This document shows, one piece after another, positions 39,001-60,600 of a DNA stretch of 64,000 bases. Source of the stretch: Perna viridis (lineage: Eukaryota). Made by a program: the position numbers and the translations under genes. The stretch is taken from contig CM074520.1 in NCBI GenBank assembly GCA_037379345.1, positions 14,859,488 through 14,923,487 of the forward strand, read 5' to 3'. Each line of letters opens with the position of its first letter. The stretch's first letter is position 1. Below the pieces are notes generated by a model, which ran no database searches, was not told where the DNA came from, and saw only the letters and a list, made by a program, of their open reading frames with translations.

Positions 39001-42000
39001 ACAATGATATTTCATTTGTTGAATGATTTTACACCAGTCTGGAAGGGTGAAATTATAGATTTCTGGGCATGTCTTTAGGAGACAACCATTTGATTCTGAT
39101 GGGGGGACCAGAAAAAAGTTGTTAGTAAAGATTCTGCCTTACATTTCCTAGAAAATCAATAATTGTCTGACTTCAGTCCAGAAACTTCATACAGTGAAAT
39201 GGAAATAAGTAATCTTGCTCTGATGTGGTTGAAAATAAATTTGCTGACCCACAAAATTTCAAAAATAAATATTTTGACCCTTCAAAATGTGCCCCCCTGT
39301 CAGAATGAAATGGTCATCCCCTTAGAGGATCGAATTAATAAATATCTTAAAAGTCATAACTTATTATGTTTGTTTTAATTTACATGTACCTTGGTGCAAA
39401 TCTTAATCTAATCATAAAACCATTAATAGGCAAAATTACATGTATTTCTCATTACTTTCAGATGGGTGTCATCTGAAAATCACATTAATTTCATATGAAG
39501 CTTGATTCACATGTATATCACCTGAATAGTATTTTTCAGTCTTTGAATCTGTTTTATATTTTTATCAACAATAGTTTTCCAATGTTTTAAACTGAAGTAT
39601 TTTAACTTCAGATGACCATATTTGAACATGAACAACAGCAGAGATTATTAGACTATGAAACTAGACTACAGTGTTCAGAGGATGCTAGTCGACAAACTGT
39701 TAATGAATTGAGAAATTTGTTGACAGGACAACAGAGAATGTGTGCTAGGTAAGTATACATTGGGTGTGCCAATTAGTTTTCTGGGATATTAAGAAAGTGA
39801 TTCATGGTGTAGAAAAACCTCACCAAACTAATGATGCTTTTTTTGTTCTACATATTTTATATTTTCACATTAGGATGGTCCTTTCGGTAATCAGATGTGT
39901 ATTGAGATAATCATACATTAACCTCTTACTTAATTCAACCAAAACAAACCAAATCAAGAATGATAACTCTTGGAAATTTCAAATTACGTGTACAATCTAT
40001 ATAATTTTTTGTCTTCAAGTGCACAACCAAAGGAAAAACTAAGACTGGTATGAGGTCTGTAACTGCCCTAAATAAGAAATAAAAATGAGTTTAGTGAGTA
40101 TTTGACGTGAAGGAATCAACTTCTGTCTGATTTTAATAAAGACTGCTACTTAATTTTTTTGAGATTTGAATACAGATTTTTTTTCAAATTTATGGCAAAT
40201 CTATCACTATTTTTTCTTTTTTTTTTGACTGGGCTGCCATGTTTACTTGAAGAAAACAGAAGTTAAACTGAATATAAATGTCGAAAGTGACATGAAATTA
40301 AAAATAATACATAAAGTCCTGTTACATGTTCATTTTCCCCCCCTCAATGCGGAGCGGGGACATAGAAATGCTGGTGTCTGTCCGTGCGTCTGAAGCTTGT
40401 GGATGCAACTCCTCAGAAACGGCTGAACGGAATTTGACAAAATTTTGTAGGATTGTTTGTCACCATATGTAGTTGACCATAATTAACCGCTATTTTGATT
40501 CAACAAGTTTTATGGGAGTTATGGGACTTTGTTCATTTTTCACATTATTCGCATGGCAACACCTTGCGGCCGCAACTCCTCAGAAACTGCTGAACGGAAT
40601 TTGACCAAATTTTGTAGGATTGTTTGCCACCATATGTAGTTGACCATACTTAACCGCTATTATGATTCGACAAGTTTTATGGGAGTTATGGGACTTTGTT
40701 CATTTTTCACTTTCTTTTTTTGTGGATTTTTTTTTCTTGTAAAAAGAATTCTTAACCTAACTTAATTTGATTCATTAAGATACATTAACCTTGAATTGCC
40801 ACATGGACTTGTGAAAGCACATAAGTTTTGAATCTGCTATTTATAGAAGTGTCAAACATTTGTAATTCAACTCTTTCTACAGCGGCGGGGACATATGGCT
40901 ACGCGTAGCATTCTTGTCTTATTAGGTTTTTCTTTTTTTTTTTTTGTTGGGGAGGGGAATTAATAATGTTTCTTAACAAATGTCTGAAAATTTGGATGAT
41001 CACAATGGTACATTGGCAGTGTGTTCATAATGTTATTTTTAGATGGAAAGAAGAATGTCAGACAATTACAGAAAAATTTGAACAGAAATTAAAAGATGTG
41101 AGATCAGAACTTAGTCATGTTAAAAAGCGAAATGATGAACTGACATCATTGTTAAGGGAGAGTCAAGAAAAGACACTTGAAGCAGAGAGAATGATTACAG
41201 ACTATGCTAAAAATATCAGAAGGATGGAGGAAAGAGTCAGAGACTCTGAAAGCCGAGCCTCGGAGGCATCAAAACAGGTAATGCTGTAGAATAGGAACCA
41301 GTTTTAGCTGGACTCCATGCTCTCTCTATGCATCAGAGGCATCAAAACAGGTACTGCTGTAGAATAGAAACACGTATTTTAGCTAGACTCCCTGCTCTCT
41401 ATATGCACCAGAGGCATCAAAACAGGTACTGCTGTAGAATAGAAACAAGTGTTTTAGCTAGACTCCCTGCTCTATGCCCCAGAGGCATCAAAACAGGTAC
41501 TGCTGTAGAATAGAAACAAGTATTTTAGCTAGACTCCCTGCTCTCTCTATGCCTCAGAGGCATCAAAACAGGTACTGCTGTAGAATAGAAACAAGTGTTT
41601 TAGCTAGACTCTCTGCTCTCTCTATGCCTCAGAGGCATCAAAACAGGTACTGCTGTAGAATAGAAACAAGTGTTTTAGCTAGACTCCCTGCTCTCTCTAT
41701 GCCTCAGAGGCATCAAAACAGGTACTGCTGTAGAATAGAAACAAGTGTTTTAGCTAGACTCCCTGCTCTCTCTATGCCTCAGAGGCATCAAAACAGGTAC
41801 TGCTGTAGAATAGAAACAAGTGCTTAACTAGGTTTTATCATTGTACAGTATATATGAACACTTGGAGACATTTTCCAAACTTGATCTCAAATGAATAAAG
41901 ATTAATGAAGTTGTAATTTTATATCTATATAACTTGTTGTTTGAAAAAGAACCTTGTGAACTAGTGGTTTCTAACACAAATATATATTTGATATTTTTAT

Positions 42001-44442
42001 ATCAGAGAGTATTCTTTTTGAAAGTAATAACAATTTCTGGAATGACACTTTCTAGAAATAATATTCTATGAGACTTTGTATACAGATTTATTTGTCAAAA
42101 ATCATAATGATACTGAAACATCAGTTGTTTCAAGATTCTTATCAATAATTCCACTGAAAATGTATTATTGACATATAACATATACACTTAGCTAGACTGT
42201 ATGCTCCCTCTGCTTCAGAGGCATCAAAACAGGTTATACTGTAGTAAATTAACCAGCATTTTAGCTAGACTCCATGCTCATGTAAACATGCAAAAGTGAA
42301 AGATGTGGCAAGTCATATCTTAACACCAAGATAACACATAGACGCTAAATAATCTTTAAATGAAAAACAGTGATAGATACAGGTAAGTTGGAAAACAGTT
42401 TACAACTAAAAAGGTGATGACATCTACTCTGGTCAAATTTAAATTTAGTTTCTTTGTTTACAAAGACATTTTGAATCTGCCTTTATTCTCTTATATACAC
42501 ATATAAGAAGGGTAAAACTTACATAAGTCTTTTCTTAATAATAAAAAAAATTATCTGTGTATTGGTTTTTTAGTTACTTGTACTTTCTATTATGATATAC
42601 ATTGGTAAGAATCTAATTTTCAAACAAATAAATTTCTGATATGATTTATTGGTTTTTGATTCCAACATTATTTTCACAGCTTGCTAGACATTCTATGAGA
42701 GAGAGACAGATGCAGAATGAAAGGAAAAGTTTATTGCTTGAATTAAATGCATCAACAAGATCAAATAGGTAAGTGTGATGAAGGGAATATTTTAGAAGAT
42801 TTTATATGATAACAGTTATTGATCCTTGAAATTCTACTATCTTATTCAAAATCTACTGATTAAATCCTCAAACCATTGTCTTATGAAATCATTGCTTTAT
42901 GAGGTTTCCTACCTCACAATCTTAATCTATAACATATGAGCTCTATGTAATGATTTTTTTCATAACATCATCATGTTGGTTTTACTTTTGTTAGTCCACT
43001 TTTGTTAAATGTCTTTTTGCTTTTTACACGTAGGTTTAACCCCTTTTCACTTTCCATAACTTCAATTCATGAACTTAGAATCAGCATAATTGAGACAAAA
43101 AATCATTTTCTGAAACCACAAAGTCATTGACTTAAGCACATGTATTATCTATGAAATTACTAACTGAACTTTAAATTTGTCCATTTATTTCATTGATGCC
43201 TAAATACTTTACAATTTTTTTTAATGATTTCTTATATTAATATTTCATTTTAGCAGTAAAGGTTGGAAGCATCAATGGTCAATTTGAAATTCAGGGTGAT
43301 TCTCTCTTTCGGTGTATTCACATGTATATTTTGTCCTACTCACATATTAACTAACTCATGTTATCATATAAATAGTCTATTTGTTGTAAACACAATAATA
43401 AGTGTAAATTTCTGTAAGAGTCAGGCAAAATAGAAGTAAATCAGAAACATGCATATCAAAATCCCACTGATCTGACAATACTATTTTACCAATTTTTCTA
43501 TAGAATGTTAATAAAATGATATTTTTGACAGAATTATCTGTCTTTGAAATGTTCATTATCAGTGCATGAGACACACTGCATGTATGTACACTATTAAGGA
43601 AGTTGACACAAAACATAGACTTATCATCCACTGCCCGATTCTTAAGAGACCCTGTAGTTAAAATGTGAGGGTGAGTATGTTTGATAATTCAAATTGAATT
43701 CTATGGTACATTTTTCATTTAATTCTTGTTATGATTATAAGGAAAGTTTGGATTGTTGTACTATGAGCTACAATTTTTTTCAGTAGAATTTGTTTTTGTG
43801 GTAACACGGGAATCCAAGTTGGCTTTACTACCTTTTTAATCTCTCCATCTGTATAATTTTAATCATGGAAATCCCTTACACAGTTATAAGATGAAAATTT
43901 ATACTGATTGATGATGTCATATGAATATAAACATTAATAACAGAATAATTATCATGTTTACTCAAACATCATTTCATTCTGCCTGTAAGTGGATGACCAA
44001 TCAGGAATAATACTTCCACTATGTACATAAAAAAATAAACACATTATCCTCTTGTAACATTTAACATTGTAGCTAAGCCTATGAAGTTGTGTCAGGGATA
44101 TTGTAAGGCTTCCATTCTGTCTGTCCATCTTTTTGAACATTCAGATGTTGTCATAATTGAATGTTTGTTTTACCAAACTTGTTACATACTGCAAGGCTTC
44201 CTTTTAATTCCCCAGGTCCAAGGTCAAAAGGTCTTTGTTTTAATGGAGAGGATTTGTGTCTTCTACAGCAGTTTGTTTAACTGTTTATAGCTTGTTTGTG
44301 GTATCAACCAATTAATGATTTTTTTTTTTTCAGAAATGCTGATGCCTTAATGCTGGGAGATTTAACATCTAGTCCCAAATCTAAGCTACATAATTCATCC
44401 TATCTTAATGGAAACAAAGAAGACTCATTTTCTGATAGATGA
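23980..44442 (+). CDS. SCLT1: Sodium channel and clathrin linker 1 (centriole distal appendage coiled-coil protein); whole gene, 20 coding exons, 713 aa
   Basis: join: 23980-24025, 24413-24477, 25046-25098, 25392-25464, 25851-26042, 27369-27440, 27889-27939, 28238-28308, 28649-28739, 30216-30307, 34629-34715, 35409-35598, 36071-36142, 36580-36654, 37148-37296, 37775-37967, 39612-39748, 41043-41277, 42680-42768, 44334-44442 (2142 nt, GT-AG, phases consistent). EVDFLKDQVKRL, LSPLIAEYD, QCNERITKLTEEL, AERSRDDL, NELRNLLTGQQ, RWKEE match vertebrate SCLT1 as recalled. Confidence 0.92.
24413..24477 (+). CDS. SCLT1: SCLT1 exon 2
   Basis: KRLSEQLQKYRNVSAESATGE. Confidence 0.9.
25046..25098 (+). CDS. 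SCLT1: SCLT1 exon 3
   Basis: QGEGQDGGPVAPWLTDK; bridges phase 0->2. Confidence 0.85.
25392..25464 (+). CDS. SCLT1: SCLT1 exon 4
   Basis: VLSPLIAEYDQQFLVLLEEKEILR. Confidence 0.9.
25851..26042 (+). CDS. SCLT1: SCLT1 exon 5
   Basis: KELNKLKPELERLMTENGRL...NLQMQVETALQ. Confidence 0.92.
26503..26921 (-). mobile_element. Truncated TACCGTA-ended MITE (Tc1/mariner-like termini)
   Basis: Ends ...CACCAAAATACGGTA; reverse complement aligns by eye with 30603-31024. Confidence 0.75.
27369..27440 (+). CDS. SCLT1: SCLT1 exon 6
   Basis: EKEASIDRWREAEMEIDRLQKELQ. Confidence 0.92.
27889..27939 (+). CDS. SCLT1: SCLT1 exon 7
   Basis: NEKDSHQWRVVEDQATR, 51 nt, AG/GT flanks. Confidence 0.8.
28238..28308 (+). 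CDS. SCLT1: SCLT1 exon 8
   Basis: MQSEYQESVAVLNREIEELQTDS. Confidence 0.88.
28649..28739 (+). CDS. SCLT1: SCLT1 exon 9
   Basis: LAKQELDKANTELRDLKRENKDLEQKLQWK. Confidence 0.9.
28847..29190 (+). mobile_element. 5'-truncated retroelement 3' end (Penelope-like family, by recollection)
   Basis: Residual frame VVDRYDVSISTMKTDLFNGS* (28847-28909) resembles a C-terminus I recall from abundant bivalve RT ORFs; followed by a CpG-containing structured segment. Confidence 0.55.
30216..30307 (+). CDS. SCLT1: SCLT1 exon 10
   Basis: DQDIADIIMKEGVSDSHLQEMKRLLDESNH. Confidence 0.9.
30603..31343 (+). mobile_element. Full-length MITE, nested in an AGGCCA...TGGCCT-ended element (~30376-31378)
   Basis: TACCATATTTTGGTGTG ... 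CACACTAAAATACTGTA terminal inverted repeats with TA flanks. Confidence 0.75.
31376..34335 (+). mobile_element. Cluster of nested HINE-like elements in SCLT1 intron 10
   Basis: Outer start CACTTGGCGTCTGTC..GTCGTTAAC; inner element ~32121-33030 with GTCCGTCCGT and three ~160-bp units (32209, 32369, 32528); identical 3' end CTCTTTATTGTAGT at ~33017 and ~34323. Confidence 0.65.
34629..34715 (+). CDS. SCLT1: SCLT1 exon 11
   Basis: LSQVTRELEETKTDKAGMEAIIKESRTR. Confidence 0.88.
35409..35598 (+). CDS. SCLT1: SCLT1 exon 12
   Basis: ADLEKRELDAVSQVRDAVQMVEKA...AGMKTRQE. Confidence 0.93.
35601..35768. repeat. ~28-bp minisatellite directly after the SCLT1 exon 12 donor
   Basis: GGTACCCAAAATAACTGTAGAATGTCTT-like units, 5-6 copies. 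Confidence 0.85.
36071..36142 (+). CDS. SCLT1: SCLT1 exon 13
   Basis: VDIVRNQCNERITKLTEELNTFEM. Confidence 0.93.
36580..36654 (+). CDS. SCLT1: SCLT1 exon 14
   Basis: DSADLREQVQRAIRDKRNVESELEK. Confidence 0.93.
37148..37296 (+). CDS. SCLT1: SCLT1 exon 15
   Basis: FHHEQKVSVAKDKASFEDMNRRAIAAERSRDDLEVKVETLQ. Confidence 0.92.
37654..37716 (+). mobile_element. SINE/LINE 3' tail fragment
   Basis: ATATAGCTGAAATATTGCTG...GGCATTAAACCCC followed by (CAAA)n tail. Confidence 0.55.
37775..37967 (+). CDS. SCLT1: SCLT1 exon 16
   Basis: NQQISSQTDVQLAQLKERM...RMRLQKDNDELKKR...CQKE. Confidence 0.9.
38275..38700 (+). mobile_element. HINE-like element, same family as 7341-7875
   Basis: Shares GGCGTCCGTCCG, CCAAATAAGTTTGTTTTTGGTATGTGG and 3' GGGGGACATTGGAA with the 7341 copy. 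Confidence 0.75.
39075..39325. mobile_element. MITE
   Basis: TTAGGAGACAACCATTTGATTCTGA ... TCAGAATGAAATGGTCATCCCCTTA inverted termini. Confidence 0.65.
39612..39748 (+). CDS. SCLT1: SCLT1 exon 17
   Basis: MTIFEHEQQQRLLDYETRLQCSEDASRQTVNELRNLLTGQQRMCA. Confidence 0.93.
40333..40920 (+). mobile_element. Well-preserved HINE-like element
   Basis: GCGGGGACATA near both ends, GTCTGTCCGT microsatellite, two ~167-bp units (40405, 40572), 3' palindrome GCTACGCGTAGC 40898-40909, T-rich flanks. Confidence 0.8.
41043..41277 (+). CDS. SCLT1: SCLT1 exon 18
   Basis: WKEECQTITEKFEQKL...ESRASEASKQ, donor CAG|GTAATG. Confidence 0.93.
41257..41823 (+). repeat. 75-bp tandem array (about 7.6 units) that includes the SCLT1 exon 18 end and splice donor
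   Basis: GCCTCAGAGGCATCAAAACAG|GTACTGCTGTAGAATAGAAACAAGTGTTTTAGCTAGACTCCCTGCTCTCTCTAT; units at 41257, 41330, 41405, 41476, 41551, 41626, 41701, 41776; detached copy ~42188-42278. Confidence 0.97.
42680..42768 (+). CDS. SCLT1: SCLT1 exon 19
   Basis: LARHSMRERQMQNERKSLLLELNASTRSN, donor GTAAGT. Confidence 0.85.
44334..44442 (+). CDS. SCLT1: SCLT1 exon 20 (probable last coding exon)
   Basis: Long T-tract+CAG acceptor, phase match, NADALMLGDLTSSPKSK...DSFSDR*; the tail is not one I recognise as conserved, so the call rests on splice signals. Confidence 0.72.
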
Positions 44443-45523
44443 CAAATGTAACATATACTGTTCAATTAACATCTCAGGAATCAAGTCACTGCTGCCCTGA
44501 ATCTGATCAGTGAAGGGAAACAAAACATTAGATGGTTTGTTGGTTCTCCAAAAGAACCATTAAACATATCCATACATACTATCAACATCATTCTTGGTAT
44601 AAATACTCAGAACACAACACAGCTAATATGATTGTTTAAGATTTGCCTTCTGCCAATTTTGAAAACTTCGATCGACATTAATTGTCATGTAGACAAATAC
44701 ATGTATTGTTTGAGTATGAAATTTCAATGGTTACTTAATTATACATGCATTGTAATTAGTTCAAGCTGTGGCTGTTCATATCAAAATATTGTCTAAGTAT
44801 TATTGTTTGTGGGATCTTAATTACCTCTCCAGCTAAGAATCATGCAAAATGTGATTCATGGGTAAAAAGCCTACATATTTTTATTTTTGATATTTTGTTT
44901 GAATTGCCATAATTTACAGAAATTAACATTCAGTTTTTCATATAACCCGTGTTCTTAGGTGAAAAAACTATACAGAATGCACTGTAGATTTCAAAATTAA
45001 GGGAGATAACTCTGTAAATGAAACTCAAATACAATAGAATCTATTGGATTTTCAATGTTGATTATCTCCTAAGAGCAGGCAGATTAGAATGAATAATTAC
45101 TCATTTAATAGTATAGACCCATAAAACAACTTAATTGCAAAAACAAAAACATGTAGCCTTTTTTTGGGGTGTATCACATTTTTCAGATTTTGCATGATTC
45201 TTACAAAAACAACTACTTAATATTTGTGATTTTTATTGTTCAGTATAAAAATGAACTGAAACTGCTAAGTAAAGAATGAAAGATTAACTAAGAAGTGATG
45301 ATACTCTATTAAAATACAAGAATTCAATTATAAATGTAGCTAACTGAAATATTTCTGAAAATTTATACCCTCAAATGAAAGTACTTTATAGTATTGTGTA
45401 GAATTTATCTTATAATTGAAATAACTGAATTACTGACATATCAAAGAGTGCTATGATTTTACAGATATCAGAGTCCGTCCACCTATATTTGTATTTTGAT
45501 ATATTTTCTATGTATAAGACATC

Positions 45524-51582: not shown

Positions 51583-52473
51583 TCACTCTAAATGGAGAAG
51601 GTGTGATGCTGCGTCAGCATATTGAATAACTGTAATGTTACCATGTGTGAGTCTTTCTTTCAGCTGCACTAATCTGCTGTCAATTGTACGGTACTTCTTG
51701 GTTTTTGGTCGAATAGTTCCACCGGCGTTGTGTTGGATTTGCTTGATCTCATTTGCAGCCTGAATATCTTTGAACATACGGATAACGGTGAAGATGTTTG
51801 GATGTGCGTTGTTGACTTTTTTCTTCAATTTGTTATACCACCCCTCTAAATGGTTTGTTGTTCTAGGACCGTCATTGCTGAAGTGGTTCCATAACTGTGG
51901 AGTACCTTCTACCCATTGTGTTGTGACGTAATCGGTAAATGTAGTAGTTCCTGGAGGTGTATCGATGTCTTCCAGTTCATTCAAGGCATTGAACCAGACA
52001 TCTTCAATTTGGTCTAGTGGTACGAGTGGCAACACAGCAGCTCTTCTGACAAGTTGTTGAATGTCAACGTTGTTCTTATATGCGGGTTGTAGATCTGTCT
52101 CTTGGGTTTTTCTCCATACGGCTTCAGTGAAATGAAAGAAACAACCTTTTATCGTCACATTTGGAAATACACTTGTAGCTGCATTATGAGCGGCAGTCTC
52201 GAAGTCCATAAAAATTGAAGTTGGTTGAAGTTGTAGCTGAAGTTGTTCCATAGTAGTTTTGAGTTGCGTGAATAATCTGAAGTAGATGTCGGTGCTTTTC
52301 CCTGGTAAAAATGCGAAGAGTAGTGGATACATTTGGTCATTCACCATGGCATGAATAGTATATATCTGCTTGAATAAAGACGGGCATGTATAGAAAGTTC
52401 CGTCACAGTATAAGGTGTTGGCATTTGCCAAGTTAATCAAATTTTCTGATGTTGCAAAAGCAATAATGCGCAT
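51583..52473 (-). CDS. MULE transposase catalytic core (DDE), lacking N-terminal DNA-binding region
   Basis: 296-aa ORF with YCDGTF (D1), FMDFE (D2), GCFFH (CxxH), RTTNHLEGW (E), HPNI; frame extends upstream as VIFDDNNNQDMRIIAFAT to an acceptor-like site at 52506-52507. Confidence 0.9.
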   Translation of the reverse strand: MRIIAFATSENLINLANANTLYCDGTFYTCPSLFKQIYTIHAMVNDQMYPLLFAFLPGKSTDIYFRLFTQLKTTMEQLQLQLQPTSIFMDFETAAHNAATSVFPNVTIKGCFFHFTEAVWRKTQETDLQPAYKNNVDIQQLVRRAAVLPLVPLDQIEDVWFNALNELEDIDTPPGTTTFTDYVTTQWVEGTPQLWNHFSNDGPRTTNHLEGWYNKLKKKVNNAHPNIFTVIRMFKDIQAANEIKQIQHNAGGTIRPKTKKYRTIDSRLVQLKERLTHGNITVIQYADAASHLLHLE

Positions 52474-53394
52474 ATCTTGGTTGTTATTGTCGTCGAAAAT
52501 TACAACTGCATGTAAAACGAAAAAAAAGATATTTTGTTATAAAAGAAAAAAATATTTATGCATCTATGTACAAATTTGAAATTATAAAAAAGATAATTAG
52601 AACTGCATGTAATATTAAAAACAGACTATAATTACTAAAACAACAACTTGTACCTGATTGTTTATTTATTGCAAGTGGGCAGAATGAGAATATAATTTTT
52701 AAAAAGTGGGCAGAACGGGAACAAACCGTATAATTGTATATTTGAATATACAAAAGCTAATTTGAAATATTGTATTTGAAAAAAATGCCAATTATAGGTG
52801 AAATGGAAGGAAATATAAATTCTGAAAATTCCCTTAAAAAAAAAAAAACAAAACAAAAACAAAACCTTATTATTGTCAGCTTGTAACTGAAAAATACGCC
52901 ACTGAAATGGAACTTTTTTGGTACCATTGTAAAGCTGAGATATTGGGCTACATGATGATACATACATATGACAGTTTTCTTTGTTTTGTAGGAAGAAGTT
53001 CGTAGAATTAAAATAGATTTTTTCCTAAACGAGGTATAAAAAGTAGCCAAAAAAAAAATGCTTCAGTTAATTTTTGGCGACAAAAACATTCGTAAATGGG
53101 AGGAATAAGGGTACCAGAAAATAATATTTTAGTTGATGAGTGGGGGTGTACGGGGGGGGGGGTTATCTCAGCCCACGTACAAGTGTATTTAAAGAAACTT
53201 CTATCTTTAATTATACTACAAGCATCATGTATTGAATATATGCTGGCACTTGGGGGAATTGATGGTGTAGACATCGTCTTTTTATAGGGTTGGTAAGTCC
53301 CGTTCTAGTTTCAGTTTAACATTGAACTCAATGCTATATTAATGACGAATCTCAATGCATTTGAATGGGAGATGAGGACCCATTCTCATGAAAT

Positions 53395-54290
53395 AACGGA
53401 GTCACGTGACGAGACTTACATACTCTATTGCCTTATTTGAGAATATTTATGAGCTTTATATTTCTGATTTTATTCAATAAATGGACTCGGAAACTGGCAA
53501 AAAGGGATTTTTGATCAGATTAACGAATCAGACAGAAATAATGAGAACCATTTGTGACCAAGGTGCATGTGGTATTGAATGCATTTTAGCAATAAAAAGT
53601 CAGTCAAAGATTCTCACTAACATTCTGTGTAGGCTAAAAACCACTAATTCCACTTCCCATAGGCTTCTATGCTAATTTCACAATATTCAATGGCTTCTCT
53701 GGACTTTACCTTAACTTTAACCTGCAGATGACTATATATCAGCATGATTCTACATATGTCAGCTCACAATCCTCAGAATGGCATGTGGGGTTAGCAGACT
53801 TGCAGTGCAGTACTGGTCACCGGAAGTGAAGGGTCTATAAATAGCATGGGAAATCCCAGTGTTTTCACAAGATAGGGGTATATTTAAAAATCATTATGGA
53901 GATTAGGCTTCACATCACAAGAAGCAAAATGCACCTATAAAATGTACAGAAATGTTTTTCCTTTCAGAAACTGTTTAAATTTTTAAAATAAGATGAGAAC
54001 TTTTTTCACAGCACTATGAGGAACAGGGGTAATTTCTGCGTAGGACTATTTTTGCGTACGTTCCAAATGCTCATTGGTTGAATTGGTGGTCTGTAACCTG
54101 TAATGTTTACCACAGGCTTCCATAGTTTATTTTCGGAAAATCTTTGTTTCCCGTTATCGGTTTTATTCTTCTTTTTTAGAGATGGCGCTGTTGTCGTTGA
54201 TTACTTCCTGTTCCAAGATGTTCCTGGAGTGAAATCTCCTTTTATGGTTCTTGCAGGAAAATGGTTTAATTCCTTTGTGTGCTAACGTAA
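53395..54290 (+). promoter_or_regulatory. Probable promoter and non-coding first exon of the zinc-finger gene
   Basis: GTCACGTGAC 53401-53410, CCGGAAGT 53820-53827, TATAAAT 53836-53842, GGGAAATCCC 53848-53857, reverse CCAAT boxes 54073 and 54082, YY1-like AGATGGCG ~54180, donor AAC|GTAAGA at 54287; local CpG enrichment. Confidence 0.6.
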
Positions 54291-55963
54291 GAGTGTACAA
54301 TTTGAAAGAGAACACAAGTTCAAGCCATTAAAGGTGTTAATTACACTCACTTAAACTAATTTATGTACTTTCAATTCAATTATCCAGTATTGAACCGAAA
54401 ATTTATCCCAAGACATCAGAATGTCACTGATATTCTGGCAGTTCTTTTTCGCTCTCTAAAAGATGTACTACCTTTGACATTTCATTAAACTTGGTGTATT
54501 AAAAATTGATAATAGATCGGTGTGTCCTGTGAGTAGATAAGACATGACACTTTGCTTTAGCATTTGGAATTGGAGGGGAAAAAGAATTTGTTTAAATTCA
54601 ATATGAGTGTGAGAAAAGCAATTATCATTTCCCTTTTAAATTAAATTGATTTCTTTCATTAAAAATGTTTGCCAAATTTCATCAGTTGGAGTTGGCAAAA
54701 GATATTCTAAATATTTGTAATTTTATTGGTATAACATTTCTGGGATCAGCGAAGAGTGCCTGTTTATCCACTATTGGGAAAGTTTTTTTTTTTTTAAATG
54801 TAGTGTAATTTTAAATAGAAACACAATATTAAGCACTTTGACAAGCAATATTAGAGAATAATTGGTGTTTGGGGGTTAATTTTTGAACCATTTCAATTAA
54901 TTATTGAAGGGTAACAACATCACAGCAACTGAAATAACACTCTGTGATTTTAAAGTCATAGATTAAATTTATTAAGATTTTTTTATGGCAATCCACTGTT
55001 TCTTAATGAGAAGTACTCTGATCAACTGACTCACTTTAATGATGTAATCGTTGTACACATCATTACCATTTTATGAATGATTTTACATGGGTTTTTAAAT
55101 TGGGAAAAGACACCTTAGGTCAATTGAGGAAAATTATTGATGTTTTATCAGTATTTTGGGAATTGTTTAATCTAATATTTTCACTTGAAAATGCCTGTAT
55201 CAGTATAGAACATTACCACGTTTCCACAAATTTGATTTTGTTTATATATATTGAGAGGAGGTATGGTGTATATGTCGGGATGAAAATGTTTGCTATATGT
55301 AGTTTTGAAAATAAAATTATTTTGACTGTTTTTATGATTTTATATATGATCAGAAATCATCATATGAATTTTATTTGAGAGCACTGCTCCAAGTCCTCCA
55401 ACTCACAACAAAAAATGTATATCTTAAAAGTACATGTGACCTTGAACCTCAACCTACTGACACTATCATTAAATGGTGCCTTTCTTACCCAAAGTGGTTA
55501 ACTGGTACAAGATTCATGAAAATCCAGAAAGCTTTCATAAGTTATGCCAGAAAACAATTTTCACAGAAAAAAAAACTTGTATAACTTAAAAGTGCATGTC
55601 ACCTTAAACTTCTTTACTTATTTCTGGTTTGTGTATGAGAAAGCACAAAAGCTTTTCACAAGTTATGATTGGAAATAAAAGAATATAATATTTGCACTGG
55701 GTTAATGCAGTTTAAACTGGGGCAAGAATAGGTGGCAATACATCTTTTTAATGATTGATTAAGATTTGCAAAATAAATTACTTCAAGAACTGTTATGTAC
55801 ATGTATATGAACATTGATATTTAGATAATGTATCTGTTTGTGTCTAGGATATGAGTTCTTACATTGACTTGAGTACATGACTTATATTATGTGATCGTAT
55901 TATAACAGAAATTCTCAATCCATTTCATGGATATGTAAATCTTTCTCTTTTTCAGATATAAAA

Positions 55964-57604
55964 ATGGAACAGACTTATTTTGAAAGAATGTCTCGACAGA
56001 CTCATGTTAGCACATTACTTCAGAAAGCCATACTTAATTTATGTCAAACAAATTATGCAGCATGTGCTCCTAACTTGGAAGTGGACGGTATCATATGTAT
56101 TTCTTTCCCAAACAGCCCAGACCAGCATGTTGTCAAAATTCATGAAAGAGTTTGCTTGAATAGTTTTGGAGCTAGCTCATTTGACCAAGACATTTCTCAA
56201 GCAGCTGATGTGCCTAAAGATTATGATTCTTCTCTGAGTAAAAGTGATCCATATCATGGCTTATTCTTTGGTCAGAGAAATCCAGGTTTACAAATGGACA
56301 GACATAGCATGCAAAATTCATACAATGAAACTAAGTCAACTTTAAAGTCAAGAAATCCTCACTTGCATGTACAAAACCAAAGTATGAGACATTCTGACTG
56401 TCAGAAGAATCCAAACTCAACAGACAAGACTCCTACAAGATCAAAAAGAAAAATGTTCAAAGTTGTGCAACGAATCAAAAATGCTGAAGAAGCAGAGGTT
56501 TCATCAGATTCTTCTAATGACATTTCAAGTGCCACTGAAATTTCTAATGCTGAACCTGCCAAAGCAAATCTGTGTCATCAGAACGATCAATCTAGAGTGA
56601 ATCCATGTCATTCAGATGAAAGGTCTAAAGAAAAATCTGGAATTAATTTATATAATGAACATGATTTATCTGGATTAAATTCTTGTCCCACTGTTGTAAA
56701 TTCGTTGGAAAAAAGGTCTCAAGGGAAACCAAGTTATACAGAGTCGCTTCAGGATGGCTATGTTATTGTCAAAGTTGAAGGTTGTGATGATGAACCATCC
56801 CTTGCTGAAAATTGCAAAGATGGACATGACCAGGGCAACAGATTAGAGGATAATGCGAACAAATATCTTGAGTCTGATACCCAGCCTCAAAGAAAATGGA
56901 TACAATTACCATTAGAAAATGAAATGGACAATGAAACTGAATTTTCACAGCACCAAGCAAAGGATAGAATTATCACTATTGATGGAAAAGTTGTTGATTT
57001 TTCTTCAGAAAGCCCAAGTAAGAACTCTAATGATGACAGTGTCACAAGTGCAGATGATGGTTATACAGTGAGGCCTTCTATAGGACAAATTGATTTGTCT
57101 AAAATAGCAGATTTTTGTAAACAAAGAGCTGCTGAATCTTATGACCACGGAACAAAAGAATTTCAGTCCAAAATATCCCCAAGATTTCATAATGCTAGCA
57201 TGACACACTCTTCACCCTATACACCTGACCTGGTACAACATAGGCTGAATCAGAGTAAAGGAGCAAAGAAAGTCAGTAGTTTGATAATCAAGAAAGGACT
57301 TAAGGATCAGCTGCCTGACTTGCCTAATTTGTCACCACTTGACTCTGAACAAAGTTCTAAGACTGTAAGTATTAGTTTCAGTCCAGATAAGGAAAAGAAA
57401 TACTTTTGCCGGCATTGTGGAAAGGGTTTCACTCTAAAGTGTACAAGATCTCGACATGAAAAGACCATTTGTGGTGGAGGTGGAGAAGGCCAATACAAAT
57501 GTCATATTTGTCTTAAAGTCTTCACTCGATCTGACAGTAGATGTCGCCATTTGTTAAAAACTCATGGTGTGAAGACAACATATGAGATGTCAACACCATG
57601 CTGA
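55964..57604 (+). CDS. Zinc-finger protein (C-terminal C2HC + C2H2 pair), 546 aa, single coding exon
   Basis: Long ORF right after acceptor TTTTCAG (AG 55954-55955); fingers FCRHCGKGFTLKCTRSRHEKTIC and YKCHICLKVFTRSDSRCRHLLKTH; long polar low-complexity middle; compact hydrophobic N-terminal ~55 aa. Confidence 0.9.
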   Translation: MEQTYFERMSRQTHVSTLLQKAILNLCQTNYAACAPNLEVDGIICISFPNSPDQHVVKIHERVCLNSFGASSFDQDISQAADVPKDYDSSLSKSDPYHGLFFGQRNPGLQMDRHSMQNSYNETKSTLKSRNPHLHVQNQSMRHSDCQKNPNSTDKTPTRSKRKMFKVVQRIKNAEEAEVSSDSSNDISSATEISNAEPAKANLCHQNDQSRVNPCHSDERSKEKSGINLYNEHDLSGLNSCPTVVNSLEKRSQGKPSYTESLQDGYVIVKVEGCDDEPSLAENCKDGHDQGNRLEDNANKYLESDTQPQRKWIQLPLENEMDNETEFSQHQAKDRIITIDGKVVDFSSESPSKNSNDDSVTSADDGYTVRPSIGQIDLSKIADFCKQRAAESYDHGTKEFQSKISPRFHNASMTHSSPYTPDLVQHRLNQSKGAKKVSSLIIKKGLKDQLPDLPNLSPLDSEQSSKTVSISFSPDKEKKYFCRHCGKGFTLKCTRSRHEKTICGGGGEGQYKCHICLKVFTRSDSRCRHLLKTHGVKTTYEMSTPC

Positions 57605-60600
57605 AAATCACTTGTTACAGCTCATCTAGACCAAAGGTCATATAATCTTGTGCCATCTCTTAATTTGTACATTGTAGGTAATTAAAACATTTGTTACAAA
57701 AGTCCTTTGAGAATAGAAAGCTGTGTGTTCCATGTACATGAACATATCTACACATAAGGAAGAGCTATTTTTTTTTATTTTCCCAAAGTCTGAAATGTTC
57801 ATTACATATGACCTTATCTTTAACAAAAATGCCCACCACATATTAAAAAAAAGAAACTATTGCCCCAAATTTCTTCCAGAAAGATTTATCATTTTGTTTA
57901 ACCAGTCCTATGAAAGAGGGGTATCATTTTGGTCCCACTCACTGTTCTGCATTTAGTACCATTTGTAATATAAGATAAATTTGTGATTTTTCTTGGTAAA
58001 GTACCCAATAGTTATATATATGCTTATCCTATGTTACCATATTTTACCTTGAAGGTTACACCTATACAGGTACTTGTAGATGTACATGTATGTATGGGTG
58101 TTTAATTTTAAATACACTCCTTCAAATATCAATAATTGGAGAATCTTTGGAATAAGTGTCTACCATTATTTTGCTGTACTCTTCTTAGGAGACATGTGCC
58201 CTCTTTCATAACAAATCTCAAATTTAGATTTTGACCAATCAGATCACTTGAAATTGAAGATTTGAGGAAAAACTTTTTTTTAATGAAACTCAAGATTTTT
58301 TTATATAAAAAAAACTTGCCTAAGATTTTACAGACCTACATATATCTACAGTACATATAATTTGTGTTGGAACCTACAAGCCTGTCATTGTCTGCTCATT
58401 TTTGCCATAAAATCATGCCTATAAACTTTTAACTGATCTCATATATTCAGTCATGATTGAATGTTTATGATGAAAAGTTTATAAAAAATAATTTTTAAGA
58501 CTGTTTATATATGTGACATCATTACATTGTATCATTCTTCTAAGGTGCTATTATTAAAGTACATGTACACATGTATGTTCATTACCACAACAATTTAATG
58601 TCAGATAAATGTTGAATTCATGTGTTAAAAAGTGAAATTTTGAATAAGAGAGATGCGATTAAATCAAGAGAGATTTATCATTTTTGTAGTTACAGATTTT
58701 TTTGTTTTCAAGATGATGTCACAAAACTATATGTAATGAAAGTCCAAATTAAAAACTGTTAGTAGGTCTGAAAAATTAATACTATTCCTCTGATCTGATT
58801 AAACAAAGGTTGTTATGTGATTTAGTATTTGCATTTTTGTTAGATTTTTTTATTTAGCATGTTTTCACTATTTATAATTTATTTTGTTATTGTGTTTGTT
58901 AGATGTGTGTGTGTTGACCTGTGTTATTCACATTTTTGTATTGTTTTCATACTTTTGATAATATAAGCTTATATAGAGATTATATTAATTAGAATCTATA
59001 TGTAAGTGTTTGGCCACAATTTACATGTATTGTAATTGTACAAGGTACATGTATTATAATTATATAAGGTACATGTATTGTGAAAGTTGGTAATTGCATA
59101 AATGAACAAAATAGAATGCAGTGCTTTCACTAGACTTTAAAGTCTTTTGACCTTTATTTTAGTACTCTATGTTTTCCTGTATTATCAAAATGCATATCAA
59201 AATGTTTGTCTAAAAAGAGGTGCATTGGGTGGTATCATTTTGATATATTTTTATGTAAAAACCTGTTTCTCTGAGGAATATTTCATAAGTTACCTCCCCT
59301 TGATACAATTTTAAAACATTTAAAATATGTTGCTGTAATGGACATCTCTGAACAAACCCTTGGAACTAAAATGAAGCACTATAATGATAGAATCATTATG
59401 GAAACTTTATCAAGTTTAAATTCCCTTGTCTTTATTGAAAAAGGGTGGTTGCTTGATAACTGAAGTTTGTCGTGGTAGTTTTATTATTAAAATTATAAAT
59501 TGCACAGATGTAAGTTTAACTTAAGCTTGCCTTGGTAGAATTACATAGATGAAAGTTTTGATGTTTATGTCAGTAGATCAAAGGTCAAAGTTAATATTAC
59601 TTTTAACATAGATTTTTGCCAAAGCTTATATTATTGCCTTGCCACAGTTACAAATTACTAGTTTATTATTGAATGTTGCAGAATACAACATAAAGAAATG
59701 TTTGAGGTGTATAAAGAAATTATGATTTTTATTTCTAAAGATGGTCAATTCCATTCTCATTTCTCATAATGTTTCTCTTGTGAAATGAACCATTTAAGGT
59801 TTCTTCACAGTAAATTTATTTCCATTTAGTCTGATTTTGGTATTCTGCATTTTGTTTTATGCTTCCTGTCAAATCAGTTTCAGTAAAATTAAAATCAGTC
59901 AGTGATAGTAGCCAGACTCTAATCTTAACATGTAGATCCTTGGTTATTGAGGCTACATTAAAATCTGTATTAACTTGGTTCAGGAATGAGTCTGTTCACT
60001 GATACAGTAGTAGTGAATTTAAATGACCAAAAAAAAATGCTTGAAATCCACTCTGACTGTGAACAAATGCTTTTGTTTCAAAATCCATGATAAGCAAGTT
60101 TCTCTTTTCATTATTCATGTACTACAAATATTTACATTTTTGTAACATTTCATACATGTCTTTTTAAAAAGTAAACTTTAAATTACAGGAGCTTTTTTCT
60201 TAATATGCTTTGTAGTATTTTCTCTTATTTGTTCTTTTGTTTATTAGGGAATTAATAAAGTACATGTATTGTAAAACTGTTAATTCAGAAATCTATGGAG
60301 TCCTTCAACTTGTTTGAATGTCAATTTGTTGTAACAATTTTAACATTTAATTTAGCCAAAAAGCTACTTTACTAGTGATTTCTGAATTTACAGTAAGTAG
60401 TTACGTATATGAATCAAATTTGTGATTTAAATAACATTGATTTAGGTGCATTTTAACTAGTCCCGTTATTTATTATTTATTTTGTAGTTTTGCAATTTTG
60501 CACACTTAAGATTTACACTAGATTTACCACATTGACAACATGTGGTTAGCTGCATTTGTGGTCAGCCATAGGTTTTTATGTAATGATTAATTTCACGCAA

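What the first reader, a model, noticed from the sequence alone, without database searches (positions are those of the whole stretch)
55990..56160. Orphan N-terminal module on a lola-like double zinc-finger protein: candidate lophotrochozoan counterpart of BTB/ZAD/KRAB
Seen: VSTLLQKAILNLCQTNYAACAPNLEVDGIICISFPNSPDQHVVKIHERV is the only compact hydrophobic segment outside the fingers, with a helix then three-strand pattern (LLxxAIxxLC; LEVDGIICI; VVKIHE). It is followed by ~420 aa of polar sequence with a SUMO-type VKVE and a DLS motif, then a C2HC+C2H2 pair like insect lola. It matches no BTB, ZAD, SCAN or KRAB pattern I know. Unverified recollection: a similar module heads many uncharacterised mollusc and annelid nuclear proteins. 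Inference: an undescribed oligomerisation/effector domain defining a lineage-specific transcription-factor family.
Basis: partly seen in the sequence, partly recalled or inferred. Interest (0 to 1): 0.75.

Follow-up and report, generated by a model that had tools for sequence, protein, structure and literature searches.

The report
New mollusc–annelid zinc-finger head domain
A transcribed mussel-like gene begins with a 50-residue module, absent from the domain libraries searched, that also heads more than 150 other proteins, most with zinc fingers and all named ones from molluscs or annelid worms; it is predicted to fold as one helix plus two strands and likely lets these gene regulators pair up, as BTB, ZAD and SCAN domains do in other animals.

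Summary
Confirmed and extended. Window 55964-57604(+) is a spliced, transcribed gene with one coding exon (546 aa); residues 15-63 are its true N-terminal module. A profile of the module finds 262 clusters among 1.84 billion representatives. It is N-terminal in 168 of 172 copies, and 153 of 167 carriers of 300 aa or more have zinc fingers, 1 to 17 each. All 21 named species are bivalves, gastropods or annelids. Owenia holds 21-24 distinct copies, apparently on one chromosome; one carrier is a pogo-like transposase. Pfam has no model for it. AlphaFold2 gives helix + two strands (pLDDT 89), not three strands. Conserved hydrophobic residues lie on both hairpin faces, so a partner is needed: likely self-association (0.55), or a shared cofactor (0.25). 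Neither is shown. SUMO sites are enriched family-wide (66 of 76 vs 25 shuffled); CtBP-type PxDLS is not. The lola-like finger pair marks one subfamily only. Ten literature searches found no description. Verdict: a new zinc-finger-associated domain.

The parts
54210..54286 (+). Non-coding first exon (start approximate, from a 77-base contig piece); ends with an in-frame TAA before the donor
   Evidence: joint 54286>55956 GT..AG in X21-X23 reads and X1 contig; sequence
54287..55955 (+). Intron, 1669 bases, GT..AG
55964..57604 (+). Single coding exon ORF, 546 aa (P0001); transcript contig runs 55956-58007
   Evidence: near-identical database protein P0002
56006..56152 (+). N-terminal module, residues 15-63: helix to about C27-Y31, strand 38-47, strand 54-63; near-invariant C27, D41, C45, K58, H60
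56759..56779 (+). Hydrophobic-cluster SUMO consensus YVIVKVE (266-272) followed by acidic residues; invariant in 5 of 5 aligned close relatives
57089..57100 (+). IDLS (376-379), kept in 4 of 5 aligned close relatives; lacks the proline of PxDLS; function unsupported
57407..57472 (+). C2HC zinc finger (C482-C503)
57500..57565 (+). C2H2 zinc finger (C513-H534) with R, D, S, R at helix positions -1, 2, 3, 6
   Evidence: (PF00096 E 0.014, below the gathering score)

Best explanation
The segment is a mobile N-terminal domain of about 50 residues shared by a large family of mollusc and annelid zinc-finger proteins; it is predicted to fold as a helix followed by a beta-hairpin and likely works as a self-association module that lets these presumed transcription factors bind DNA as dimers or higher oligomers. 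Steps. Shown: domain, N-terminal position, range of named hosts, partner domains, transcription, family-wide SUMO consensus. Predicted: the helix-strand-strand fold. Inferred: the helix covers one hairpin face (L38, V40, G42, I44, I46, V57, I59, V63); the other face (I43, C45, V56 with D41, K58, H60) and the extra helix stripe (I23, L24, C27) are buried against further copies. Inferred: oligomers make up for the short reach of a two-finger protein and can bridge sites. Inferred: the disordered linker is SUMOylated at the conserved lysine and recruits co-regulators, more likely repressive.
For: Family: 262 hits at E<=1e-3, 139 at E<=1e-10 among 1,835,955,588 representatives. Position: 168 of 172 copies start within the first 60 residues. 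Partners: 153 of 167 carriers of 300 aa or more have C2H2/C2HC fingers; of 82 carriers scanned (82 of the 129 new proteins), 57 showed a C2H2 family, 1 EGF repeats, 24 nothing. Mobility: on a DDE_1 pogo-like protein (P0024, E 2.4e-5) whose module is 78% identical to that of a 13-finger protein; weak BEN in P0051 (E 0.002, below cut-off); two tandem copies in P0049. Fold: pLDDT 88.9 and 89.3, pTM 0.71, helix 2-27, strands 34/35-43 and 50-58/59 in model numbering. Surface logic: weighted hydrophobic fraction is 0.98-1.00 at I43, C45, V56 as well as 0.96-1.00 at L38, V40, I44, I46, V57, I59, so both faces of the hairpin are apolar while one helix can cover only one; hydrophobic helix positions 15, 18, 19, 23, 24, 26, 27 span about 240 degrees (my arithmetic). 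Precedent: ZAD, SCAN and BTB occupy the same position and homodimerise (PMC7913770, PMC5509000, passages); lola pairs a BTB dimerisation domain with CCHC+C2H2 fingers (PMC3262752, passage). SUMO: psiKxE in 66 of 76 dereplicated carriers vs 25.2 shuffled (max 34), psiKxEP 33 vs 1.9; controls psiRxE 17 vs 18.8 and psiKxD 20 vs 25.1.
Against: No experiment exists. The face assignment rests on strand limits and alternation; I had no model coordinates. Covariation (206 sequences, Neff 69-131) gave no usable contacts. D41, K58 and H60 are 99-100% invariant across all subfamilies, which fits a site for one shared partner at least as well as paralogue-specific dimers (Drosophila ZADs diverge to under 18% similarity, PMC7913770). 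Part of that invariance is selection bias, since members were the best hits of a profile built on these residues. The first copy in the tandem protein P0049 is degenerate in the second strand. Repression is inferred from the SUMO motif alone; PxDLS (3 of 76 vs 1.9), PxVxL (13 vs 14.7), SIM (6 vs 3.8) and eh1 (0) motifs are not enriched.
Confidence: 0.55

Rival explanations
1. The module is a KRAB/FiNZ-type docking site: it folds on, or adds strands to, one conserved chromatin cofactor, using the invariant D41/K58/H60 face, rather than pairing with itself.
For: Polar residues D41, K58, H60 and E39 are 93-100% conserved across two phyla and all finger architectures. Local expansion in Owenia (21-24 distinct copies on what appears to be one 35.75-Mb contig) and capture by a pogo-like transposase recall KRAB behaviour (recalled). 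Owenia methylates some intergenic transposons by an unknown targeting route (PMC11292947, passage).
Against: Most subfamilies are old and slow: a 14-finger group keeps finger signatures such as xNNR, RDDx, xLMK, xPNR, RDDY from Potamilus to Haliotis and Patella (37-42% identity over the whole length), and the window's subfamily keeps R-1/D2 in finger 2 in 29 of 32. That is unlike an arms race. KRAB and FiNZ are short, acidic and on their own exon (PMC10547256); this module is hydrophobic and shares the exon with the fingers.
Confidence: 0.25
2. The module is a zinc-binding domain (a ZAD analogue) in which C27, C45, H60 and D41 ligate a metal ion, probably between subunits.
For: These four potential ligands are the most conserved residues: C 0.99, D 1.00, C 0.98, H 0.99.
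Against: No CxxC knuckle. C45 sits in a run of apolar strand residues (GIICI) and C27 in the apolar helix stripe, as buried cysteines do. In the inferred register C45 is two rungs from the D41-H60 pair and C27 is on the other face, so one chain would not supply all four.
Confidence: 0.1
3. The module is a remote member of an already described domain (for example a MADS-like helix-strand-strand dimerisation core) or is already named in a database or paper that I could not search.
For: MEF2D (Z 4.2, rmsd 3.2, 47 aligned, 17% identity), MEF2A (Z 3.8, rmsd 3.3, 47 aligned, 19%) and SEPALLATA3 (Z 3.4, rmsd 3.5, 43 aligned, 16%) appear in the structural list, with the highest identities in it. I recall a more distant related module on many lophotrochozoan nuclear proteins (recalled, untested).
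Against: These Z values are tied with pilins and thioesterases, a common arrangement. No Pfam family matched more than 3 of 114 members at E<=1, best E 0.008; the profile finds no MADS protein in the PDB sequences at E<=10. InterPro, CDD, SMART, HHpred and AlphaFold DB were not available.
Confidence: 0.1

Closest known systems
ZAD (zf-AD) C2H2 proteins of arthropods
   Same: Small N-terminal domain on C2H2 arrays, lineage-restricted, expanded in clusters; the likely role is the same (homodimerisation; PMC7913770).
   Different: No four-cysteine zinc site; predicted helix-strand-strand order; no Pfam match; far higher sequence conservation between paralogues.
BTB-zinc finger proteins lola / tramtrack
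   Same: N-terminal domain, long polar linker, and in the window's subfamily a CCHC then C2H2 pair as described for lola (PMC3262752).
   Different: No BTB match; about 50 residues rather than about 115 (recalled); one coding exon, no constant-exon/variable-exon splicing seen; homology of the finger pair to lola was not tested by alignment.
SCAN-C2H2 proteins of vertebrates
   Same: Conserved N-terminal domain on C2H2 arrays, small genomic clusters, dimerisation as presumed main role (PMC5509000).
   Different: SCAN is five helices of retroviral capsid origin; this is predicted helix plus hairpin; no Pfam match and no viral relative found.
KRAB and FiNZ zinc-finger families
   Same: Lineage-restricted N-terminal module defining a finger family, with local expansion and a transposase fusion.
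   Different: Those are acidic, on a separate exon, fast-evolving and transposon-directed (PMC10547256); this module is hydrophobic, in the same exon as the fingers (34 of 39 loci), and many subfamilies keep conserved recognition residues.
MADS/MEF2 core
   Same: Helix followed by two strands; weak structural listing (Z 3.4-4.2).
   Different: Score is at background level, there is no sequence match, and the basic DNA-binding N-terminal arm of MADS (recalled) is not conserved here.

Membership tests
BTB/POZ (lola, tramtrack type) | Match to a BTB profile in the N-terminal part | tested here: not met
   No BTB family for P0001 at E<=10, for 21 and 114 module sequences at E<=1, or among the families shown for 82 full-length carriers (only the best 5 shown per protein)
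BTB/POZ (lola, tramtrack type) | C-terminal CCHC + C2H2 finger pair as in most lola isoforms | tested here: met
   C482-C503 and C513-H534; lola description from PMC3262752. Pattern only
BTB/POZ (lola, tramtrack type) | Sequence homology of the finger pair to lola isoforms | not tested
   No lola sequence was supplied by a tool; PDB search gives generic C2H2 hits, tramtrack 2drp at E 2.3e-6 for the second finger
BTB/POZ (lola, tramtrack type) | Constant BTB exons spliced onto variable finger exons | tested here: not met
   The only junction listed into the exon comes from a non-coding exon with an in-frame stop; 24 weaker joints in the 20-kb stretch were not shown
ZAD (zf-AD) | Four invariant cysteines in two pairs binding zinc | tested here: not met
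   Two conserved, unpaired cysteines (C27, C45) only; no zf-AD match
ZAD (zf-AD) | Homodimerisation | not testable with these tools
   Needs a biochemical test
SCAN | Five-helix capsid-derived domain matching the SCAN profile | tested here: not met
   Predicted one helix and two strands; no SCAN match
KRAB / FiNZ | Profile match; acidic short module on its own exon upstream of the finger exon | tested here: not met
   No KRAB match; module and fingers share one ORF in the window and in 34 of 39 loci (3 more end at the contig edge, 2 stop early). FiNZ was judged from its description only
KRAB / FiNZ | Recruits a co-repressor and silences transposons | not testable with these tools
   Needs reporter, pull-down and ChIP experiments
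MADS/MEF2 core | Same fold | tested here: inconclusive
   MEF2D Z 4.2, rmsd 3.2, 47 aligned; tied with unrelated folds
MADS/MEF2 core | Sequence match to the MADS (SRF-TF) profile | tested here: not met
   Not among the Pfam hits of 114 members at E<=1 or the PDB sequence hits at E<=10

The most novel reading that the evidence does not exclude
This is the missing lophotrochozoan counterpart of BTB/ZAD/SCAN/KRAB: an undescribed small domain with a new oligomeric fold, older than the mollusc-annelid split, that defines a whole class of single-exon, SUMO-regulated transcription factors, has been captured by a transposase, and has expanded into a KRAB-like cluster in Owenia where it could guide the unexplained transposon methylation of that worm.
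Probability: 0.3. Interest if true: 0.8.

Novelty: new variant of a known kind. Interest (0 to 1): 0.62.

Why it matters
Known N-terminal companions of C2H2 arrays are vertebrate (KRAB, SCAN, FiNZ), insect (ZAD) or general (BTB). The papers read name none for molluscs or annelids, and PMC10547256 says dozens of zinc-finger families remain uncharacterised. This module gives a profile that pulls a coherent transcription-factor class out of 'uncharacterized' mollusc and annelid genes, and a 50-residue target for structure and binding assays. The Owenia expansion makes an open question testable: how an invertebrate targets methylation to transposons (PMC11292947).

Tried and rejected
Complex prediction of two copies: no answer; the alignment was not used, the fold was uncertain, score 0.01; it is no evidence either way. 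Fold searches: Foldseek against PDB and BFVD gave no match at E<=0.001; VIA-align against 48,161 chains gave no Z>=5 for either model; this does not show that the fold is new. PDB sequence searches: flavodoxin and a CRISPR protein at E 1-2; PKA RI-alpha dimerisation helix at E 0.025 over 20 residues, taken as an amphipathic-helix coincidence. DUF6846 matched 1 of 21 members (E 0.0058) and was not listed for full-length P0016 or the 114-member set: chance. NCBIfam: 2 chance-level hits. ESM Atlas: no usable hit twice, no model held. Mean-field covariation: noise. Viral contigs: 0 of 8 pattern hits confirmed. No second copy in the window (next best E 0.56) or within any of the 39 loci. No whole genome is held, so copies per genome could not be counted for this species. 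Run search: no RNA holder listed among indexed runs; raw reads were laid instead. CtBP, HP1, SIM and Groucho motifs rejected as family traits. Nesting in the upstream coiled-coil gene considered: its contig ends at 44623 and no listed joint spans the finger gene. Earlier scan findings: nothing by sequence, place or relatives; one unrelated module by words; a short-motif look-up for a recalled more distant subfamily found nothing. The domain tree (193 sequences of about 57 columns) has weak deep support and was used only to see subfamilies.

Full report
OBSERVATION. The window is AT-rich animal DNA (GC 0.28-0.36). A 546-aa ORF runs from 55964 to 57604 on +. It is the most hydrophobic part of the protein; a 416-residue polar linker with VKVE (269) and two DLS (234, 377) follows, then a C2HC and a C2H2 finger. 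The nearest named relative is Mytilus californianus LOC127716091 (83% in the module), so the window is likely from a mytilid-like bivalve (inference). Stranded RNA reads in 3 of 3 raw runs cover the ORF at depth 5-8 on the sense side and splice 54286 to 55956; a 2,129-base contig spans 55956-58007. The upstream exon ends with an in-frame stop, and 5 of 5 aligned relatives start at the same methionine. The module is therefore the real N-terminus of a single coding exon.

IT IS A DOMAIN, NOT AN ORTHOLOGUE QUIRK. A single-sequence search found 5 proteins, a 5-row profile 41, and a 21-row profile run over all 1,835,955,588 representatives 262 at E<=1e-3 and 139 at E<=1e-10, of which 150 were listed. 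In 171 proteins held at that point there were 172 copies, 168 starting in the first 60 residues. Of 167 carriers of 300 aa or more, 153 have C2H2/C2HC fingers by pattern, 1 to 17 each; 14 have none. Pfam on 82 of the 129 new carriers showed C2H2 families in 57, EGF repeats in 1 (P0115, module internal; possibly a merged gene model) and nothing in 24. Other partners: DDE_1 in P0024, whose module is 78% identical to that of 13-finger P0067; weak BEN in P0051; QRICH1/DUF3504 upstream of an internal module in P0150 and P0153, which may be merged models. P0049 has two tandem copies. In 39 of 39 metagenome loci the module was found once; 34 have fingers in the same ORF, 3 end at the contig edge, 2 stop after 121 residues. 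About two dozen of these loci are one orthologue group, so they are not independent.

RANGE. They cover 11 bivalve species (Mytilus, Pecten, Mizuhopecten, Ylistrum, Argopecten, two Saccostrea, Solemya, Potamilus, Sinanodonta, Ruditapes), 6 gastropods (four Haliotis, two Patella) and 4 annelids (Owenia, Ridgeia, Paralvinella, Lamellibrachia). No named carrier lies outside these two phyla. Twenty-nine Owenia entries share one longest-contig length (35,751,742 bases) and hold 30 copies, 24 distinct at 95% and 21 at 90% identity; one chromosome is inferred from that shared length, and some entries are alternative or partial models. Beside this local expansion there are old, slow subfamilies: the 14-finger group keeps its recognition residues between bivalves and gastropods, and the window's two-finger group keeps R-1 and D2 in finger 2 in 29 of 32.

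STRUCTURE. AlphaFold2 with 21 and with 114 rows gives the same result: helix to residue 31, strands 38/39-47 and 54-62/63, pLDDT about 89, pTM 0.71. Over 206 unique copies, C27, D41, C45, K58 and H60 are 98-100% conserved (biased upward by how members were chosen). By alternation, L38, V40, G42, I44, I46, V57, I59 and V63 form the face for the helix. The other face carries apolar I43, C45, V56 and polar D41, K58, H60. A two-stranded sheet with two apolar faces and a helix apolar over about 240 degrees is unlikely to be a stable monomer (inference). It needs a partner, which may be itself or a cofactor.

LINKER. After dereplication (76 of 190 carriers, 35% whole-length identity), psiKxE occurs in 66 of 76 against 25.2 in shuffles, psiKxEP in 33 against 1.9, and the acidic-extended form in 55 against 10.2; three control patterns were at or below background. 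PxDLS (3 vs 1.9), PxVxL (13 vs 14.7), SIM (6 vs 3.8) and eh1 (0) are not enriched; basic KRK clusters are. SUMO modification itself is untested.

MECHANISM. Most likely (0.55) the module is a self-association domain, as ZAD, SCAN and BTB are; the oligomer would bring several short finger sets to DNA, and the SUMOylated linker would recruit co-regulators. Rivals: docking site for one conserved cofactor (0.25), inter-subunit zinc site (0.1), remote member of a known or already named domain (0.1). Nothing here measures binding.

COMPARISON. It works like ZAD/SCAN/BTB by position and likely role, but is not a member of BTB, ZAD, SCAN or KRAB by profile, cysteine pattern, predicted secondary structure or exon layout. 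The lola likeness is limited to the CCHC+C2H2 pattern of one subfamily; homology to lola was not tested. MADS shares the helix-strand-strand order at background score only.

LITERATURE. Ten full-text searches of the open library listed no paper that describes this module; one query (C2H2 + Lophotrochozoa + KRAB + ZAD) returned 0 papers. Seen: PMC10547256, passages and Discussion; PMC12513265 on cephalopod C2H2 genes, term search only, with 0 occurrences of 'N-terminal', 'effector domain', 'associated domain' or 'BTB'; PMC11292947, PMC3262752, PMC7913770, PMC5509000, passages; PMC7535936, passages, section 11 and a term search of 4 supplements, whose novel-domain examples concern arthropod and vertebrate lineages. 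All others were seen as search listings only. Subscription papers, most supplements, InterPro, CDD and AlphaFold DB were not searched, so a prior name cannot be excluded.

VERDICT. [quoted passage not shown] Its existence and range are well supported; its mechanism is inferred.

Noticed in passing
window 40909-44623 (+): Spliced coiled-coil gene upstream (joints 41273>42676 and 42766>44332); one exon has a weak CCCAP/SDCCAG8-family hit (PF15964, E 1.6e-4, below cut-off, among many coiled-coil hits).
   Followed up: partly
window 51583-52536 (-): MULE transposase ORF of 317 aa (PF10551, E 8e-14), about 1.7 kb upstream of the first exon of the finger gene.
   Followed up: no
window 53631-54099 and 44827-45220: High-copy repeats with very deep reads on both strands and many loose ends; the first ends about 110 bases before the non-coding first exon.
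   Followed up: no
window 54183-54285 (+): Several short upstream ATG-stop frames in and before the non-coding first exon (read).
   Followed up: no
window 58245-60000 (+): Further sense-strand transcription downstream of the gene (contig pieces 58245-58742 and 58923-60000): a long 3' UTR or another gene.
   Followed up: no
window 41462-41827 (+): Tandem repeat with a period of about 57 bases that reads as a repeated 19-residue frame.
   Followed up: no
P0024 (unnamed ENA contig): Module + SUMO motif + pogo-like DDE_1 transposase: a host-transposase fusion candidate; module 78% identical to that of 13-finger P0067.
   Followed up: partly
Owenia fusiformis entries with longest contig 35,751,742: 29 entries, 21-24 distinct modules, with varied finger recognition residues in the five inspected: a local expansion worth mapping.
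   Followed up: partly
P0015 and P0016; P0047 and P0063: Pairs of different subfamilies share a contig length (1,046,957; 428,992), hinting at small mixed clusters.
   Followed up: no
L001:1748-2317, L002:1772-2341: Module-bearing ORF stops 121 residues after the module with no finger, unlike its relatives: an intron, frameshift or short form.
   Followed up: no
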